The notes beneath the pieces were generated by a model that saw only the letters and a program-made list of their open reading frames with translations, did no database searches and was not told the origin of the DNA. Positions 1 to 64,000 of a stretch of DNA of 64,000 nt are shown here, in pieces (position 1 is the stretch's first letter; every line of letters begins with the position of its first letter). The DNA lies in IMG/VR virus record IMGVR_UViG_3300014205_000222; one strand, 5' to 3'. The translations under genes were made by a program, and so were the position numbers. The DNA comes from a virus.

Positions 1-1
1 A

Positions 2-217
2 TGGAAACGCAAACCGTGTGAAACCACTGTAATTGATATTGCGTATGTGGTTGCAGATGTAGAGTTAGCATTAGGTCAACTCCAGTATATGATGGATCGA
101 GGAATTGAACGAAAATATGGAGTACATCTTGACAATGCGCGGAAAGAAAAACGCGAAAATCTTCTACAAATGTTAGATGGTTTGGATATTCTACAAACGG
201 TAGACGATTTGATTTGA
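2..217 (+). CDS. hypothetical protein (5'-partial, enters window from upstream)
   Basis: Frame open from window start to TGA at 215-217 (…MMDRGIERKYGVHLDNARKEKRENLLQMLDGLDILQTVDDLI*); no start codon inside window. Confidence 0.35.
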   Translation, partial: WKRKPCETTVIDIAYVVADVELALGQLQYMMDRGIERKYGVHLDNARKEKRENLLQMLDGLDILQTVDDLI

Positions 218-260
218 GAGAAATAAAGGATAAAAAACTTATATAGGAGGATTTTTAAAA

Positions 261-539
261 ATGTTTTGGAAATTGTTTCGTAAAAACAAGACAGAGATGC
301 CACCAGAGAACAAACCCACAGTCCACGAAGTTGGTTATGCGGAGGTTGTACAGTTTTCACCGATTGAACTTACATATAAACACCCACAGATAGGCAATTT
401 TAGAATAACACAGTCTGCTACAAACCCCGGGTGGATGCGCATTCAAGAACTGTTGCCAACTGGTAATAAAAGTAGGTATTTGTCGTGGTCACGTATCATA
501 GAACTTGCGCAAGAGCAAGGAGACTGTGGGAGATATTAA
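261..539 (+). CDS. hypothetical protein (92 aa)
   Basis: ORF track; preceded by aggaggatttttaaaaATG; first of long co-directional small-gene block. Confidence 0.4.
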   Translation: MFWKLFRKNKTEMPPENKPTVHEVGYAEVVQFSPIELTYKHPQIGNFRITQSATNPGWMRIQELLPTGNKSRYLSWSRIIELAQEQGDCGRY

Positions 540-560
540 GATTGGAAGTAAGGTTGAACC

Positions 561-725
561 ATGACCATCAAACGAATTAACCCGATACTCAACACGGTTA
601 GGTGTGGACGGGTAAGCGTTCCGCTTAAAAAGTGTGAGTCTTGTCATGCGTGTCTGAATATCGAGTTTTTTGATGATGAACCTGATGGTGTTGTGTTCTG
701 TGATACCGGCGAAGATTTGATTTGA
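561..725 (+). CDS. small zinc-ribbon protein (54 aa)
   Basis: Manually read ORF MTIKRINP…CESCHAC…FCDTGEDLI*; Cys pairs; tight spacing to neighbours. Confidence 0.35.
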   Translation: MTIKRINPILNTVRCGRVSVPLKKCESCHACLNIEFFDDEPDGVVFCDTGEDLI

Positions 726-61038: not shown

Positions 61039-61102
61039 ATTTAAAAGTTTGGCTATATATGTATGTATGTTTTAGTATAAAAATGTGTGTTCGGGTTTCA
61101 AT

Positions 61103-61699
61103 TCACACCAAATAAATCAATATCGGTGTAATAAAAACTTCCATGGCAGCAGCAGTCAATATGAGTGGGACAACAATTTTTAAATAAACTCGCGTCATAT
61201 ATGGCTTCGACTTGTCTTGCGCGCCGTTTAATAGGTAATAATATGCAAGATACCCTGCAATTATTACAGCAGTAAATTCAAAAACCCCATGCGGTATAAA
61301 TGCAATTATTGTTTTTGATGTTCCCAAAACACCTATAACACGCGCAAAAATTGCACCCGGGATAAAACCAGATATAAACAACAAATAACTTGTTGATATG
61401 ACACCGACATAATTGTTGAAATAATACGGCAAAAAAACTATGAGTGTAACAAAGAACAAATTATTTATAATAAATATAACCAAAAACAATCCTATTCCAA
61501 CTACCAATGGTATATTCTCGTGAGAAATTTGTTCTTTTACTTCACTATATGTCTGATTTACAACAGATTTGCCATATTGTGCTTGGGTTGCACTAGCAAA
61601 TTCCGGGCTACCCGCTGAAAAAATTGCGCCCATCATTATTCCAAGCACCAATATGAACGCCGAGCAAAATATACAGTATTGTTTGTCTGTAAATTCCAT
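61103..61699 (-). CDS. polytopic membrane protein (198 aa, ~6 TM)
   Basis: ORF track. Confidence 0.45.
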   Translation of the reverse strand: MEFTDKQYCIFCSAFILVLGIMMGAIFSAGSPEFASATQAQYGKSVVNQTYSEVKEQISHENIPLVVGIGLFLVIFIINNLFFVTLIVFLPYYFNNYVGVISTSYLLFISGFIPGAIFARVIGVLGTSKTIIAFIPHGVFEFTAVIIAGYLAYYYLLNGAQDKSKPYMTRVYLKIVVPLILTAAAMEVFITPILIYLV

Positions 61700-61960
61700 C
61701 TATCTCTTCTCCCGTTGTATTTCATTTTTCTTATTGTTTTTCTTACTATTAATATCTTCCCCAAGAGATTCCATATATGATATCAAATCAACCGACATCT
61801 TTTCCTTAATAAACTTAAAAAGTTCATAAACCCCATCTTCAACATTGCTTCCGGAACGATTCCGTTTCCACTCAAACATTGTTTTCCCATGTTCGTCTTT
61901 ATACCGTATTTCAACGGTTCCGGGTATTTTCCCACTTTTTAGTTTCTTTTGACACTTCAT
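61700..61960 (-). CDS. hypothetical protein (86 aa)
   Basis: ORF track. Confidence 0.4.
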   Translation of the reverse strand: MKCQKKLKSGKIPGTVEIRYKDEHGKTMFEWKRNRSGSNVEDGVYELFKFIKEKMSVDLISYMESLGEDINSKKNNKKNEIQREKR

Positions 61961-62548
61961 TTAATATCCACCATCCCAACCCGAGTGTTTTACATACAAC
62001 TCATATAAATGATATACAATGATGAACCCACTCAAAACTGCACATATTATACCGATATTAGAAAACGATGGGTTATATCCAATAAAAACATATGCTATGA
62101 ATAAAAATACAAATAACGAAAACGAACCGAAAACAACTGAAAACAATTTGTTTCGCACAAAAACCGACAATAGCAGCAACTGGATAGAAACAATAAATAA
62201 AACATAATATAATATATCACTATACCGCGTTCTGACAATAGAATTATTCAAATCAACGGAGCCGCTAGAATTATATACAGATATTTTCAAATTGTGTTCT
62301 TCATTTGGATTAACATTTGTTAAATAATAATTATAAGGTATTGTCAGGTTAGTATCCAAACTAACATTATAAGTAACTAAACCATCAACCCATACAGTTA
62401 TCCCATGCCCAGTGTTTATATATTCCGATGGGATTGTCCAATTCCAAACCACCCACGTTTCACCTTTCTGGAATGTTATATCCATAGCACTAGAAACACC
62501 AATAAGTGCGATGAAAAATAAAAATATAATTAAAACTTTTTTATACAT
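61961..62548 (-). CDS. signal peptide + beta-rich ectodomain + C-terminal TM anchor protein (195 aa)
   Basis: ORF track; shares C-terminal TM-anchor architecture with next gene. Confidence 0.45.
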   Translation of the reverse strand: MYKKVLIIFLFFIALIGVSSAMDITFQKGETWVVWNWTIPSEYINTGHGITVWVDGLVTYNVSLDTNLTIPYNYYLTNVNPNEEHNLKISVYNSSGSVDLNNSIVRTRYSDILYYVLFIVSIQLLLLSVFVRNKLFSVVFGSFSLFVFLFIAYVFIGYNPSFSNIGIICAVLSGFIIVYHLYELYVKHSGWDGGY

Positions 62549-64000
62549 TAATAACCACCACCCAAATATGTTGACCGTCTATACATATCATATAGTATGT
62601 ATATAGTAATAAACCCAGTTACCACCGCAAGCAAAATTGAAACCCATGATATGATTGTCATCGTACTCAAGGTTGAAACAACCAAATAAAGTTCTATAAC
62701 CAATGCGGACATAAGAAAAACAACCGATTTCGGACTACTACGAACAAGCAATCCAATTACAGTCAAAATAATTGATATTATAACAAAATACATATAATAC
62801 CAACCACTGTATTTTGTAGTCGTTTCATTGCTATCGGATGATATCTGATACAAATAATTCGGGTCACTGTCAGAATATTCAACCAACCGTATCGTATGTT
62901 TTTCGTTTGGTTTCAACCCAGACGCAGTATATGTTGTTGACATTTCACTAGCATTAGATAACGACATATCATACACTTCTGTTTCGTCTAACAACACTCG
63001 AATTTTAGAATCACTCCCAATAAACTCTGGGGGTATAACCCAATCCCACCTTATCCAGCTCTCTCCACTAACAGATGTAATCTGATATAACCCAACCGTT
63101 CCATTCTGTGGTGGATATGTAGGCGTTGGAGTAGGCGTTGGAACAAATTTTAAAGTTATATAATCTATTTTGTTAGATATTCCCCAAGAATAATCATTAG
63201 AAGCATTTAGTGTAACTGTAAACGTATTACCATTCCCATAATATGTATGCGTTGGGTTTTGTAAAGACGAGTAATTTCCATCTCCAAAATTCCACGACCA
63301 TGCAGTTGGGACACCATTAGATGTCAAATCTGAAAAATCTACAGTTAACGGAGAAGAACCACTTGTTGGTGTTCCTATAAAATTAACAGATAGTGGATAT
63401 AATGTTATATAACTGTATTTCGTTTCTACAGAATACCCAGTGGCATTTGTTACATTTAGACTAACCGTGTAACTATTTCCAGAATCCCCAACACTAATAT
63501 TATACCAATGCAATGGATTTTGGTCTGTACTAAACTCTCCATCACCAAACTCCCAGTACCAAGACAAAGGATCTGTCACAGTAGTATCTGTAAATTGCAC
63601 CACAAATGGTGGATACCCTGTTGTAGCATTGGCATAGAAATCAACATCGGGCAACCCTAATCCGGAATACACTGTAATATAATCAATCTTCACTTCACTG
63701 TCAGACCCACAATCGTTCGTGACTGTCAAATTGACCGTGTATGTGCCCGGTGATGAATATTCGTGCACAGGAGAACTTGTTGTATAATCCACAAATCCGT
63801 CATTATCAATATCCCATGCCCAAGTTGATGGACTACCCGTGCTACTATCTTTAAACGCAACTACAAGAGGAGATTCCCCTGTCGTTACATTCGCAGAGAA
63901 CCCGGCAGTTGGCGGACTGCCAACGGTTATATGCCCGGTCTTCACTTCGCTGTCAGACCCACAATCGTTCGTGACTGTCAAATTGACCGTGTATGTGCCC
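62548..64000 (-). CDS. PKD-repeat cell-surface protein with C-terminal TM anchor (N-terminus beyond window)
   Basis: Repeated …YTVNLTVTNDCGSDSEVK… PKD-domain signature; frame stays open to window end. Confidence 0.65.
   Translation of the reverse strand, partial: GTYTVNLTVTNDCGSDSEVKTGHITVGSPPTAGFSANVTTGESPLVVAFKDSSTGSPSTWAWDIDNDGFVDYTTSSPVHEYSSPGTYTVNLTVTNDCGSDSEVKIDYITVYSGLGLPDVDFYANATTGYPPFVVQFTDTTVTDPLSWYWEFGDGEFSTDQNPLHWYNISVGDSGNSYTVSLNVTNATGYSVETKYSYITLYPLSVNFIGTPTSGSSPLTVDFSDLTSNGVPTAWSWNFGDGNYSSLQNPTHTYYGNGNTFTVTLNASNDYSWGISNKIDYITLKFVPTPTPTPTYPPQNGTVGLYQITSVSGESWIRWDWVIPPEFIGSDSKIRVLLDETEVYDMSLSNASEMSTTYTASGLKPNEKHTIRLVEYSDSDPNYLYQISSDSNETTTKYSGWYYMYFVIISIILTVIGLLVRSSPKSVVFLMSALVIELYLVVSTLSTMTIISWVSILLAVVTGFITIYILYDMYRRSTYLGGGY
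63689..64000. repeat. near-identical 60-bp direct repeat (63689-63748 vs 63941-64000, 1 mismatch) = recently duplicated PKD domain
   Basis: Direct sequence comparison; spacing 252 bp = 84 codons = one PKD domain. Confidence 0.85.

What the first reader, a model, noticed from the sequence alone, without database searches (positions are those of the whole stretch)
1..64000. Mosaic domain-of-life signal: archaeal information-processing and envelope features combined with bacterial or phage-type RNA-repair genes
Archaeal markers: PGF-CTERM, C1-G72 tRNA-Tyr, encoded G-1 on tRNA-His, Arg-GCG, HMf histone, PCNA, PTH2, TATA/leaderless promoters. The CCA enzyme, however, is class II with an HD domain, which is the bacterial/eukaryal type (archaea normally use class I). 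Ro60 and lambda-type PPase are also bacterial or phage-associated. This suggests inter-domain gene acquisition by an archaeal virus.
Basis: inference. Interest (0 to 1): 0.5.

Follow-up and report, generated by a model that had tools for sequence, protein, structure and literature searches.

The report
Methanogen virus-like element with RNA-repair kit
This window is part of a large, undescribed virus-like DNA element of methane-producing archaea that carries 30 archaeal tRNA genes together with tRNA- and RNA-maintenance genes of bacterial or phage type, a mixture already known from at least one archaeal virus, so it is real but not unprecedented.

Summary
The archaeal side holds 30 tRNA genes (Tyr C1-G72, Arg-GCG, none with encoded CCA), histone, PCNA, PTH2, a PGF-CTERM S-layer glycoprotein and TATA boxes.

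The window lies on a 181.6-kb metagenomic contig. It belongs to a family of about 150-200-kb AT-rich elements whose S-layer gene points to Methanomicrobiales hosts.

The "inter-domain acquisition" reading is only partly supported:
- The CCA enzyme falls in a monophyletic clade of 30 metagenomic proteins; its nearest named neighbours are Clostridia. The capture is old, and the gene now sits behind an archaeal-type promoter.
- Ro60 and the phosphatase belong to a gene pool shared by hundreds of viral contigs.
- The haloarchaeal virus HGTV-1 already combines 36 tRNAs, a class II-type CCA enzyme, TROVE, RlaP and a NinI-like phosphatase.
- Virion genes were not found in the roughly 95 kb I could read, so "virus" is unproven.

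By-product: two structured RNAs sit next to Ro60. They belong to a covarying RNA family found only beside viral Ro60 genes, with a Y-RNA-like layout and no Rfam match.

The parts
36585..52741 (-). Array of 30 tRNA genes in 12 clusters, covering 19 amino acids (no Asp in the window). None encodes the 3' CCA.
   Evidence: ARAGORN finds 28 and Rfam 30. Ends and flanks were read.
45041..45115 (-). tRNA-Tyr(GTA) with C1-G72 and a short variable arm (archaeal/eukaryal type)
   Evidence: Sequence read.
44962..45038 (-). tRNA-Arg(GCG), the archaeal way of decoding CGY
   Evidence: Rfam tRNA 51.3 bits. Anticodon loop read. Conserved in relative L108 and in HGTV-1.
51135..51206 (-). tRNA-His(GTG) with genomically encoded G-1, C73 and a U2-C71 mismatch
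41598..43028 (+). Class II tRNA nucleotidyltransferase (CCA-adding/repair type) with C-terminal HD domain and a Lys/Arg-rich N-terminal tail
   Evidence: PF01743, PF12627 and PF01966. Motifs GGFPRD, DID, RRD, DDPLR and H..HD. Only class II enzymes match in the PDB.
41569..41585 (+). Archaeal-type TATA promoter 17-mer, 13 nt upstream of the CCA start codon; an identical copy lies at 40950-40966
   Evidence: Two exact copies in the window. Upstream sequences shown.
45946..47472 (-). Ro60 homologue (TROVE + vWA with MIDAS DVSGS)
   Evidence: PF05731 2e-23 and PF25045. PHROG RNA-binding protein 2.5e-48. Motif read.
47755..47848 (-). Ro60-linked structured RNA, copy 1 (Y-RNA-like stem / internal loop / stem)
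47626..47708 (-). Ro60-linked structured RNA, copy 2
45257..45919 (-). PPP-family (lambda/NinI-type) metallophosphatase directly downstream of Ro60; the gene pair is conserved in L108
   Evidence: PF00149, phrog_246 4e-50, PrpA/PrpB-like, synteny.
21019..21837 (-). RlaP, an RNA-repair Pol-beta nucleotidyltransferase
   Evidence: PF10127 2.6e-32.
36231..36584 (+). Peptidyl-tRNA hydrolase PTH2 (archaeal/eukaryal type)
   Evidence: PF01981 2.2e-30. TIGR00283 above cut-off.
39393..39728 (+). Histone-fold protein (HMf type) with a possible 40-residue N-terminal extension
   Evidence: PF00808 and PF00125. 76% identical homologue in L108.
34475..35221 (+). PCNA sliding clamp
   Evidence: PF00705. NF002222 2e-48.
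31073..33646 (-). S-layer glycoprotein (DUF3821) with signal peptide and PGF-CTERM anchor; the likely true start is at 33514
   Evidence: Closest genomic relatives are Methanomicrobiales.
24537..27084 (-). Glycosylation pair: GT2-GtrA (dolichol-phosphate sugar synthase type) and a PMT_2 family glycosyltransferase
54149..59750 (-). Replication module: PrimPol-zinc finger-D5-type helicase, a probable nuclease gene (56462-57205; Pfam finds nothing), SF2 helicase and AAA_24 ATPase
   Evidence: An 'exonuclease' PHROG hit exists in the pooled scan, which does not say which protein matched; assigning it to 56462-57205 is my inference.
27307..28029 (-). DUF5131 protein (phage Gp37/Gp68 family)
   Evidence: PF07505 7e-39. 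Also present in relative L023.
49099..50643 (-). SPFH/Band 7 protein inside the tRNA region; an SPFH protein is also encoded by HGTV-1

Best explanation
The window is about one third of a 181.6-kb AT-rich mobile element, most likely a large virus, that replicates in Methanomicrobiales methanogens and brings its own translation-maintenance kit.

Shown:
- It encodes 30 tRNA genes with archaeal identity elements behind archaeal TATA boxes. None has an encoded CCA end.
- Its coding genes are AT-rich at the third codon position (GC3 0.32), and the cognate codons of its UNN tRNAs are the most-used codons in most boxes. As a rough comparison only, its own S-layer gene has GC3 0.37 against 0.46-0.56 over the homologous stretches of the Methanomicrobiales loci.
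- Embedded in the tRNA array are a class II CCA-adding/repair enzyme with HD domain, PTH2, and Ro60 with two adjacent structured RNAs and a PPP-family phosphatase. An RlaP nucleotidyltransferase lies elsewhere in the window.

Inferred mechanism:
- The element supplies tRNAs for its own codon usage.
- The CCA enzyme matures the tRNA 3' ends and rebuilds them after damage. The HD domain would clear 2',3'-cyclic or 3'-phosphate ends.
- PTH2 recycles stalled peptidyl-tRNA.
- A Ro60-RNA particle, together with the phosphatase and RlaP, handles damaged or misfolded RNA. This would keep translation running against host tRNA- or RNA-targeting defences.

Origin: the kit comes from the gene pool that large viruses share, which is ultimately bacterial for the class II CCA enzyme. 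It was acquired long ago by the ancestor of this element family and has since been placed under archaeal promoters.
For: Archaeal identity:
- tRNA features.
- TATA boxes.
- Histone, PCNA, PTH2.
- The S-layer protein is an equivalog of a Methanoculleus family, with best genomic hits in Methanomicrobiales and Methanoregulaceae MAGs at 39-42%.

Element family: the same or related gene sets occur on contigs of 181.6, 202, 157, 59 and 22 kb. Three of these were shown to carry tRNA clusters: L023, L026 and L108.

Virus-like content:
- PrimPol-D5 helicase, AAA_24, SF2 helicase and an 'exonuclease' PHROG hit, DUF5131, NinI-like phosphatase, ASCH/DUF3850, R2K_3 and DUF4326.
- Large PKD/CBM proteins just outside the window, one of them matching a tail-fibre-assembly PHROG at 3.8e-17.
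- A weak tail-protein hit in relative L024.

Function:
- Catalytic motifs are intact.
- No tRNA gene encodes CCA.
- The CCA gene is adjacent to tRNA clusters here and in relatives L023 and L026.
- Codon usage against the tRNA set.

Origin:
- CCA clade P0001-P0030 is monophyletic, and every named hit outside it is Bacillota.
- 292 IMG/VR contigs encode Ro60 relatives.
- The phosphatase is 37% identical to phage NinI-like enzymes and 65% identical to the copy in sister element L024.

Precedent: HGTV-1 carries the same combination (PMC8651126).
Against: - No major capsid protein, portal or terminase was found in the window, in 18 kb of flanks, or in 7 kb more from an identical contig.
- The contig is absent from IMG/VR, although that metagenome was screened (L145 comes from it). 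Its primase has no relative in IMG/VR.
- The flanking giant proteins look like glycosylated, membrane-anchored surface proteins rather than classical tail parts.
- Host assignment rests on one gene family.
- Activities of the CCA enzyme, Ro60 and the phosphatase are inferred from motifs. The phosphatase has GDVVDGG in place of GDxxDRG.
- Most homologues are unnamed metagenomic proteins, so the donor lineage and the direction of transfer are not resolved.
Confidence: 0.65

Rival explanations
1. The element is not a virus. It is a large plasmid-like extrachromosomal element, or an integrated island, of Methanomicrobiales that carries tRNAs, surface-layer and glycosylation genes and an RNA-repair kit.
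For: - No virion hallmark genes in about 95 kb examined.
- Not called viral by IMG/VR.
- Many host-like envelope genes: S-layer, GT2-GtrA, PMT_2, PKD surface proteins with C-terminal membrane anchors, and an archaeal pilin in relative L024.
- A serine recombinase at 19018-19551.
- Relatives carry sugar-nucleotide biosynthesis operons.
Against: - The replication and recombination module, DUF5131, the NinI-like phosphatase and the long runs of tiny ORFs are typical of viruses.
- Dense tRNA arrays combined with Ro60, CCA and RlaP are known from jumbo phages and from HGTV-1 (PMC7824862).
- A tail-fibre-assembly PHROG matches next to the window.
- About 85 kb of the contig was never seen.
- Only one tandem repeat, so it is not Borg-like.
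Confidence: 0.3
2. The 'bacterial-type' genes were taken from archaeal cells that themselves use them (for example archaeal lineages with class II CCA enzymes), so there was no direct bacteria-to-virus transfer.
For: - A 2026 preprint reports class II CCA enzymes in Heimdallarchaeia, Pacearchaeota and clades of Euryarchaeota.
- One member of the CCA clade is labelled 'Candidatus Thermoplasmatota archaeon' (P0010).
- Ro60 is stated to occur in all three domains (PMC12135203).
Against: - P0010 sits on a 3.6-kb contig of a MAG, so its label is weak.
- The two other clade members whose contigs were inspected lie among runs of tiny ORFs, HNH and ligase genes, which is virus-like.
- No Methanomicrobiales genus appears in the preprint's genome table.
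- All other named near hits are Bacillota.
Confidence: 0.15
3. The mosaic is an artefact: a chimeric assembly, or a bacteriophage (for example of Patescibacteria, where a related contig was binned) that happens to carry archaeal-looking genes.
For: - A related 47-kb contig is filed under a Patescibacteria MAG.
- Some Ro60 neighbours are labelled Pacebacteria or Alphaproteobacteria.
Against: - The same gene order appears in JGI, ENA and Logan assemblies.
- The diverged relative L108 interleaves histone, tRNA-Tyr and tRNA-Arg(GCG) with Ro60 and the phosphatase.
- tRNA identity elements, TATA promoters in front of the CCA gene itself, and the PGF-CTERM S-layer protein require an archaeal host.
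Confidence: 0.03

Closest known systems
Halogranum tailed virus 1 (HGTV-1, Halomagnusviridae), a 144-kb haloarchaeal myovirus
   Same: - Archaeal virus with a near-complete tRNA set (36 genes, including Arg-GCG).
- TROVE/Ro60: 31% identical, the lowest E-value (2e-70) among deposited virus genomes.
- RlaP next to the TROVE gene.
- A PolyA_pol-type (class II family) tRNA nucleotidyltransferase, 32% identical to the window's.
- A NinI-like metallophosphatase and an SPFH protein.
(PMC8651126)
   Different: - Host is a halophile with GC about 50%.
- No DNA similarity and no shared replication genes.
- Its CCA enzyme shows no HD domain hit.
- It has RtcB, two RNA ligases and LysRS, none of which was seen in this window.
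- No copy of the Ro60-linked RNA was detected near its TROVE gene.
- It is a proven tailed virus, whereas this element's virion genes are unseen.
RNA-repair gene sets of jumbo bacteriophages (Ro/TROVE, RlaP, CCA-adding enzyme, phosphoesterases)
   Same: The same protein families occur together with tRNA arrays. They are interpreted as counter-measures to host RNase effectors (PMC7824862). PHROG families match the window's proteins strongly.
   Different: Here the kit serves archaeal-type tRNAs, is driven by archaeal promoters and sits beside histone, PCNA and PTH2. No RNA ligase or polynucleotide kinase was found in the window.
Bacterial and phage Y RNAs (YrlA family, RF02553; Thermus phage phiLo Yrl1/Yrl2)
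   Same: - Encoded next to Ro60, often two or more copies.
- The 5' and 3' ends form a stem interrupted by a conserved internal loop, followed by a second stem.
- Some copies carry a tRNA-like domain.
(PMC4201824; PMC12135203)
   Different: - Loop sequences differ: 5' uuGcGuAG and 3' cG.uu.uUcu, against YrlA's AUGCu and aAaAcUuG.
- A UACUUC box is conserved after the upper stem.
- No Rfam YrlA or Y_RNA hit at gathering score in the window or in 19 viral loci.
- Binding to Ro60 is untested.
- The usual bacterial partner, PNPase, is generally held to be absent from archaea (my background knowledge; not checked here).
Acidianus tailed spindle virus tRNA nucleotidyltransferase
   Same: Another archaeal virus with a class II-type enzyme, 32% identical over 76% of the protein.
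   Different: It is a crenarchaeal spindle virus and otherwise unrelated.
Borgs and jumbo extrachromosomal elements of Methanoperedens
   Same: Large AT-rich archaeal elements with strand-polarised genes and surface or S-layer proteins (papers listed).
   Different: This element is much smaller. It has only one tandem repeat in 64 kb, phage-like replication genes and a dense tRNA array.

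Membership tests
Class II CCA-adding enzyme (Pol-beta nucleotidyltransferase, bacterial/eukaryal type) | Head domain with GGxxRD and the DxD carboxylates (motif A) | tested here: met
   GGFPRD and DID at residues 74-76; PF01743 3.8e-20.
Class II CCA-adding enzyme (Pol-beta nucleotidyltransferase, bacterial/eukaryal type) | Motif B (RRD) and motif D (EDxxR), which template CTP/ATP | tested here: met
   RRD at residue 148. Motif D reads DDPLR, so the templating D and R are kept and E is replaced by D.
Class II CCA-adding enzyme (Pol-beta nucleotidyltransferase, bacterial/eukaryal type) | Similarity to solved class II rather than class I (archaeal) structures | tested here: met
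   All 20 PDB matches are class II CCA-, CC- or A-adding enzymes or poly(A) polymerases. No class I enzyme matched.
Class II CCA-adding enzyme (Pol-beta nucleotidyltransferase, bacterial/eukaryal type) | Adds the full C-C-A, rather than only CC, only A, or poly(A) | not testable with these tools
   Scores are below every NCBIfam equivalog cut-off. This needs an enzyme assay.
Multifunctional CCA/repair enzyme (E. coli type) | C-terminal HD phosphohydrolase domain | tested here: met
   PF01966 23.9 bits vs cut-off 22, with H276-H277...H305-D306.
Ro60 / TROVE | TROVE (HEAT-repeat ring) domain plus a vWA domain with a MIDAS DxSxS motif | tested here: met
   PF05731 83.7 bits. PF25045 23.1 bits is below its cut-off of 27.7, but DVSGS at residue 325 is invariant in 15 homologues.
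Ro60 / TROVE | A cognate non-coding RNA partner encoded nearby | tested here: inconclusive
   Two structured RNAs lie upstream, and their family is found only beside Ro60 genes. Binding was not tested.
YrlA-type Y RNA (RF02553) | Reaches the Rfam gathering score | tested here: not met
   No YrlA hit at gathering score in the window. No YrlA hit at E<=10 in the 47473-47959 interval, nor in 19 viral loci at gathering score.
YrlA-type Y RNA (RF02553) | Terminal stem / conserved internal loop / second stem, next to Ro60 | tested here: met
   14 of 14 pairs covary. 93.8% of cells pair, against at most 48% when the partner is slid. Layout compared with the YrlA consensus.
YrlA-type Y RNA (RF02553) | tRNA-like domain | tested here: inconclusive
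   Present in L108 copy 2 (tRNA model positions 7-64, 24 bits) and in 15 of 74 family members by T-loop motif. Neither window copy has a T-arm.
PPP-family (lambda/NinI) protein phosphatase | Motifs GDxHG, GDxxDRG, GNH(E/D) | tested here: inconclusive
   GDIHG and GNHD are present. The second motif reads GDVVDGG, so the Arg is missing. phrog_246 4e-50.
Archaeal tailed virus (Caudoviricetes) | HK97-fold major capsid protein, large terminase and portal | tested here: inconclusive
   None was found by Pfam or PHROGs in about 95 kb. About 85 kb of the contig could not be fetched.
PGF-CTERM / archaeosortase A substrate | C-terminal PGF motif, a hydrophobic helix and a basic tail, after a Thr/Pro-rich linker | tested here: met
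   The sequence ends ...PTETPKSPGFGALIALIGLGVVSFLIVRKPE. PF18204 and TIGR04126 are both above cut-off.
Borg-type element | Pervasive perfect tandem repeats and megabase size | tested here: not met
   One significant repeat array in 64 kb. Contig length 181.6 kb.

The most novel reading that the evidence does not exclude
This is the first look at an undescribed lineage of about 150-200-kb viruses of Methanomicrobiales methanogens. It has no relative among deposited phage genomes or in IMG/VR. Its tRNA complement rivals the archaeal record holder HGTV-1. It also encodes a copy of the host-type S-layer glycoprotein with glycosylation enzymes. Its Ro60 works with its own Y-RNA-like partners, which would be the first such RNAs in an archaeal setting and members of a widespread Ro60-linked viral RNA family missing from Rfam.
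Probability: 0.45. Interest if true: 0.62.

Novelty: new member of a known kind. Interest (0 to 1): 0.45.

Why it matters
The mosaic itself is not a surprise. Large tRNA-rich viruses of both bacteria and archaea are known to carry Ro60, RlaP, CCA enzymes and phosphoesterases.

What is useful here:
1. The kit is also present in elements tied to methanogens, a group whose large viruses are almost unknown.
2. A bacterial-type tRNA-maturation enzyme is driven by an archaeal promoter and serves tRNAs with archaeal identity elements. This is a concrete case of the virus-mediated 'bacterialisation' of archaeal translation parts now being discussed for class II CCA enzymes.
3. There is a testable Ro60-RNA pairing in a host that, to my knowledge, lacks PNPase, the usual bacterial effector. 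That raises the question of which nuclease, if any, the particle recruits.
4. A mobile element encodes its host's S-layer protein, which suggests surface remodelling or exclusion of rival viruses.

Tried and rejected
- Megablast of 24 kb against 50,697 phage records found nothing.
- IMG/VR holds neither the contig nor any relative of its primase or PKD protein.
- I tried to walk along the 181.6-kb contig to find virion genes. Only about 8 kb on each side could be reached through window proteins, plus 7 kb from an identical contig. The 1465-, 1069- and 803-residue proteins there have no PHROG hit. The 1465-residue one, the only one whose sequence I read, looks like a PKD surface protein rather than a tape measure.
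- One look-up failed because I guessed the wrong start codon.
- PTH2 was first missed by regular-expression search and by greedy ORF choice, because a longer spurious ORF hid it. It was recovered by scanning alternative ORFs.
- Rfam gave no Y RNA in the tRNA region or beside Ro60. The single weak YrlA hit overlaps two tRNAs.
- An exact-pattern scan of IMG/VR for the window's RNA motif found nothing. The covariance model was needed.
- No copy of the RNA was found near the HGTV-1 TROVE gene.
- In Thermus phage phiLo two weak hits lie just 3' of the Ro60 gene. I could not establish whether they are the published Yrl1 and Yrl2.
- Organism names for the closest CCA, Ro60 and phosphatase homologues could not be obtained, so rooted, labelled phylogenies were not possible.
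- The preprint's genome table contains no Methanomicrobiales genus, so the host's own CCA class remains untested.
- Borg-like identity was rejected. Chimeric assembly was rejected.

Full report
**What the window is.** The 64-kb window has 35-40% G+C and switches coding strand near 11 kb. It carries 30 tRNA genes on the minus strand between 36.5 and 52.7 kb: 28 found by ARAGORN and two more by Rfam. It has no nucleotide match among 50,697 deposited phage genomes.

Exact protein look-ups place it on a 181,586-bp JGI metagenome contig, Ga0378408_0000108. Nearly identical pieces occur in an ENA and a Logan assembly, so the gene order is not an assembly artefact. Related elements sharing several of its genes lie on contigs of 202, 157, 59 and 22 kb. 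The 22-kb relative, L108, is syntenic over the tRNA/Ro60 region, with protein identities of 40-76%.

**Checking the archaeal markers.**
- The 857-residue ORF at 31073-33646(-) has DUF3821 and a PGF-CTERM anchor. It scores 762 bits against NCBI's equivalog model for the Methanoculleus MEMAR_RS02690 S-layer glycoprotein, whose cut-off is 600. The C-terminus reads PGF, then a hydrophobic helix, then RKPE.
- tRNA-Tyr has C1-G72 and a short variable arm. tRNA-Arg(GCG) is present.
- tRNA-His has a genomic G at -1 and C73. Bacteria also encode G-1, so this does not discriminate between the domains.
- A histone fold, PCNA and PTH2 are all solid.
- TATA-like boxes lie 30-36 nt upstream of 8 of 12 tRNA transcription units.
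- An exact 17-mer, ATATATAATTTAAACAC, occurs twice. Each time its TATA part lies 22-30 nt before an ATG, and one of these is the ATG of the CCA gene. That spacing fits leaderless or near-leaderless archaeal transcripts.
- About a quarter of the genes instead have GGTGA/GGAGG sites at -16 to -5.

**Checking the bacterial/phage markers.**
- The protein at 41598-43028(+) has the PolyA_pol head, the RNA-binding neck and an HD domain. It keeps GGFPRD, DxD, RRD, a DDPLR version of motif D, and H..HD. It matches only class II enzymes among solved structures.
- The protein at 45946-47472(-) is Ro60: TROVE plus vWA with a DVSGS MIDAS motif.
- Its downstream neighbour at 45257-45919(-) is a PPP-family phosphatase. 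It matches the PHROG 'NinI-like serine-threonine phosphatase' at 4e-50, although its second motif lacks the usual arginine.

**Host and nature of the element.** The S-layer gene's best matches among 185,579 species genomes are a Methanomicrobiales MAG (42%) and a Methanoregulaceae MAG (39%). There is also a 46% match on a 47-kb contig binned, probably wrongly, in a Patescibacteria MAG.

The host-like loci have about 51-53% G+C, against 35-40% here. The element's GC3 is 0.32, and the cognate codons of its UNN tRNAs are the most-used codons in most boxes. That fits tRNAs carried to serve the element's own codon usage.

Gene content is virus-like:
- PrimPol-D5 helicase, SF2 helicase, AAA_24, an 'exonuclease' PHROG hit, DUF5131, ASCH, and long runs of tiny ORFs.
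- Just beyond the window's end, a 1011-residue protein matches a tail-fibre-assembly PHROG at 3.8e-17.

However, I found no capsid, portal or terminase in the roughly 95 kb I could read. The other giant neighbours have no PHROG hit, and the 1465-residue one, whose sequence I read, looks like a membrane-anchored PKD surface protein. IMG/VR holds neither this contig nor any relative of its primase. I therefore rate 'virus' at roughly 0.6-0.65 and a plasmid-like element at about 0.3.

**Where the bacterial-type genes come from.**
- CCA enzyme: the best 29 hits are full-length metagenomic proteins at 40-65% identity. After them come about 90 proteins at about 40-46% identity over about 70% of the length, and every named one of those is Bacillota, mostly Clostridia. 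In a neighbour-joining tree the first 30, including the window's protein, are monophyletic, and the window's subclade of seven is too. Two inspected members of the wider clade sit among virus-like tiny ORFs. One is labelled Thermoplasmatota, but it lies on a 3.6-kb contig.
- Ro60: the closest relatives (57-59%) are in sister elements. Next comes a broad set at 37-47%. 292 IMG/VR contigs encode relatives. Among deposited virus genomes the lowest E-value (2e-70) belongs to the archaeal virus HGTV-1.
- Phosphatase: 65% identical to the copy in a sister element, where it lies next to that element's S-layer gene, and 37% identical to phage NinI-like enzymes.

So the CCA gene is ultimately bacterial in type, but the capture predates the diversification of this element family. 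Ro60 and the phosphatase are best described as part of a shared viral gene pool.

A 2026 preprint reports class II CCA enzymes in some archaea: Heimdallarchaeia, Pacearchaeota and some Euryarchaeota. Its genome table lacks Methanomicrobiales, so the host's own enzyme class remains untested.

**Precedent.** HGTV-1 is a haloarchaeal myovirus with 36 tRNAs, including Arg-GCG. It encodes:
- TROVE, with RlaP next to it;
- a PolyA_pol-family tRNA nucleotidyltransferase, 32% identical to the window's (E 1e-35);
- a NinI-like metallophosphatase and an SPFH protein;
- RtcB, two RNA ligases and LysRS.

These come and from PMC8651126. Jumbo bacteriophages carry the same Ro/RlaP/CCA set (PMC7824862). Acidianus tailed spindle virus also has a class II-type enzyme. 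The mosaic is therefore a known property of large tRNA-rich viruses. This element is a new, methanogen-associated member.

**How it most likely works.** Shown: no tRNA gene here encodes CCA. The CCA gene lies beside tRNA clusters in this element and in two relatives. Ro60 and the phosphatase form a conserved pair inside the tRNA array.

Inferred: the element supplies its own tRNAs. It matures and repairs their 3' ends with the CCA/HD enzyme and recycles peptidyl-tRNA with PTH2. It uses a Ro60 particle, the phosphatase and RlaP to deal with damaged RNA during infection, probably against host nucleases that target tRNA.

**By-product: a Ro60-linked RNA family.** The 487-bp gap upstream of Ro60 holds two paralogous hairpin elements, at 47755-47848 and 47626-47708 on the minus strand. 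They share the loops GGGAUGCGCAG and CUGAAAACCC, but have different, mutually complementary stems.
- L108 has the same pair. Its second copy embeds a tRNA-like D/anticodon/T-arm domain.
- Four sequences already give 6 of 14 compensatory pairs.
- A covariance model found further copies only next to Ro60 genes of IMG/VR contigs.
- A second model, built from 15 sequences, found 137 copies at E<=0.01 in 0.68 Mb of Ro60-bearing loci. All are on the Ro60 strand and flank the gene, often in tandem. It found none in 1.28 Mb of control loci.
- On 74 members, 14 of 14 pairs covary and 93.8% of cells pair, against at most 48% when the partner is slid. That alignment is fitted to the model, so it leans towards the structure.
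- The layout (terminal stem, conserved asymmetric loop, second stem, variable or tRNA-like apex) is that of YrlA Y RNAs (PMC4201824). The loop sequences differ, and Rfam reports no YrlA or Y_RNA at these sites.
- Two weak hits lie just 3' of the Ro60 gene of Thermus phage phiLo. That Ro60 is known to bind two Y-like RNAs, but I could not establish whether they are the same RNAs.

**Verdict.** The finding is a new member of a known kind and of moderate interest, with a more interesting by-product in the Ro60-linked RNAs and the element lineage itself.

Noticed in passing
window 47626-47708 and 47755-47848 (minus strand); L108 5669-5755 and 5770-5912; many IMG/VR loci L109-L188: Two structured RNAs lie upstream of Ro60. 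They belong to a covarying family found only beside Ro60 genes of viral contigs: 137 copies, all on the Ro60 strand, and none in 1.28 Mb of control sequence. The layout is Y-RNA-like and Rfam has no match.
   Followed up: yes
window 31073-33646(-), 24537-27084(-), 23822-24520(-): The element encodes a full-length Methanomicrobiales-type S-layer glycoprotein with a PGF-CTERM anchor, two glycosyltransferases (GT2-GtrA, PMT_2) and a transglutaminase-like protein. Sister elements L024 and L020 also carry the S-layer gene. This suggests remodelling of the host surface.
   Followed up: partly
window 39393-39728(+); L108 10516-10812(-): The histone-fold protein may carry a roughly 40-residue N-terminal extension, with a Lys/Arg/Gln-rich stretch just before the fold. 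The L108 homologue is 98 residues long and 76% identical over 87 residues. Tailed histones are unusual outside eukaryotes.
   Followed up: no
window 43733-43807(-): One of the two CAU-anticodon tRNAs is odd: U1-A72, C33 instead of U33, and G37. AUA makes up 41% of the element's Ile codons, so this could be a tRNA-Ile2 that needs agmatidine modification, but its features fit neither an elongator nor an initiator tRNA well.
   Followed up: partly
window 59948-60089 within gene 59743-61038(-): A 12-bp unit is repeated 11.8 times and encodes a (A/P)PQQ repeat in a 431-residue protein of the replication module that has no family match.
   Followed up: no
window 33661-34188(-), 35492-36259(-), 53333-54112(-), 41598-41700(+): Several proteins, including the CCA enzyme, carry long Lys/Arg-rich tails at one end. 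Their function is unknown; nucleic-acid binding or packaging is possible.
   Followed up: no
L024 (GCA_040961015.1 contig JBFOMX010000060.1, 157 kb), locus 15967-16832: A sister element encodes an archaeal pilin N-terminal domain protein and a ribosomal protein L29 homologue, next to DNA methyltransferases.
   Followed up: no
L020 (JBAZKI010000010.1), 47-kb contig: A related contig with the closest S-layer homologue (46%) is deposited inside a 'Patescibacteria' MAG. This is probably a binning error.
   Followed up: no
L159 2674-2850: A manA RNA motif (RF01745, 57.4 bits) sits among the Ro60-linked RNA copies of one IMG/VR contig. There may be a relationship between the two RNA classes.
   Followed up: no
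window 51401-52000(-), 44110-44649(-), 19018-19551(-), 7570-7905(+): Other accessory genes: an ADP-ribosyltransferase of the polyvalent-protein type, an NT5C-type 5'-nucleotidase inside the tRNA array, a serine recombinase, and an ASCH/DUF3850 protein.
   Followed up: no
window about 10975: The plus-strand block of tiny genes (1-10973) and the minus-strand block (from 10978) meet tail to tail. GC skew changes sign in the same region.
   Followed up: no
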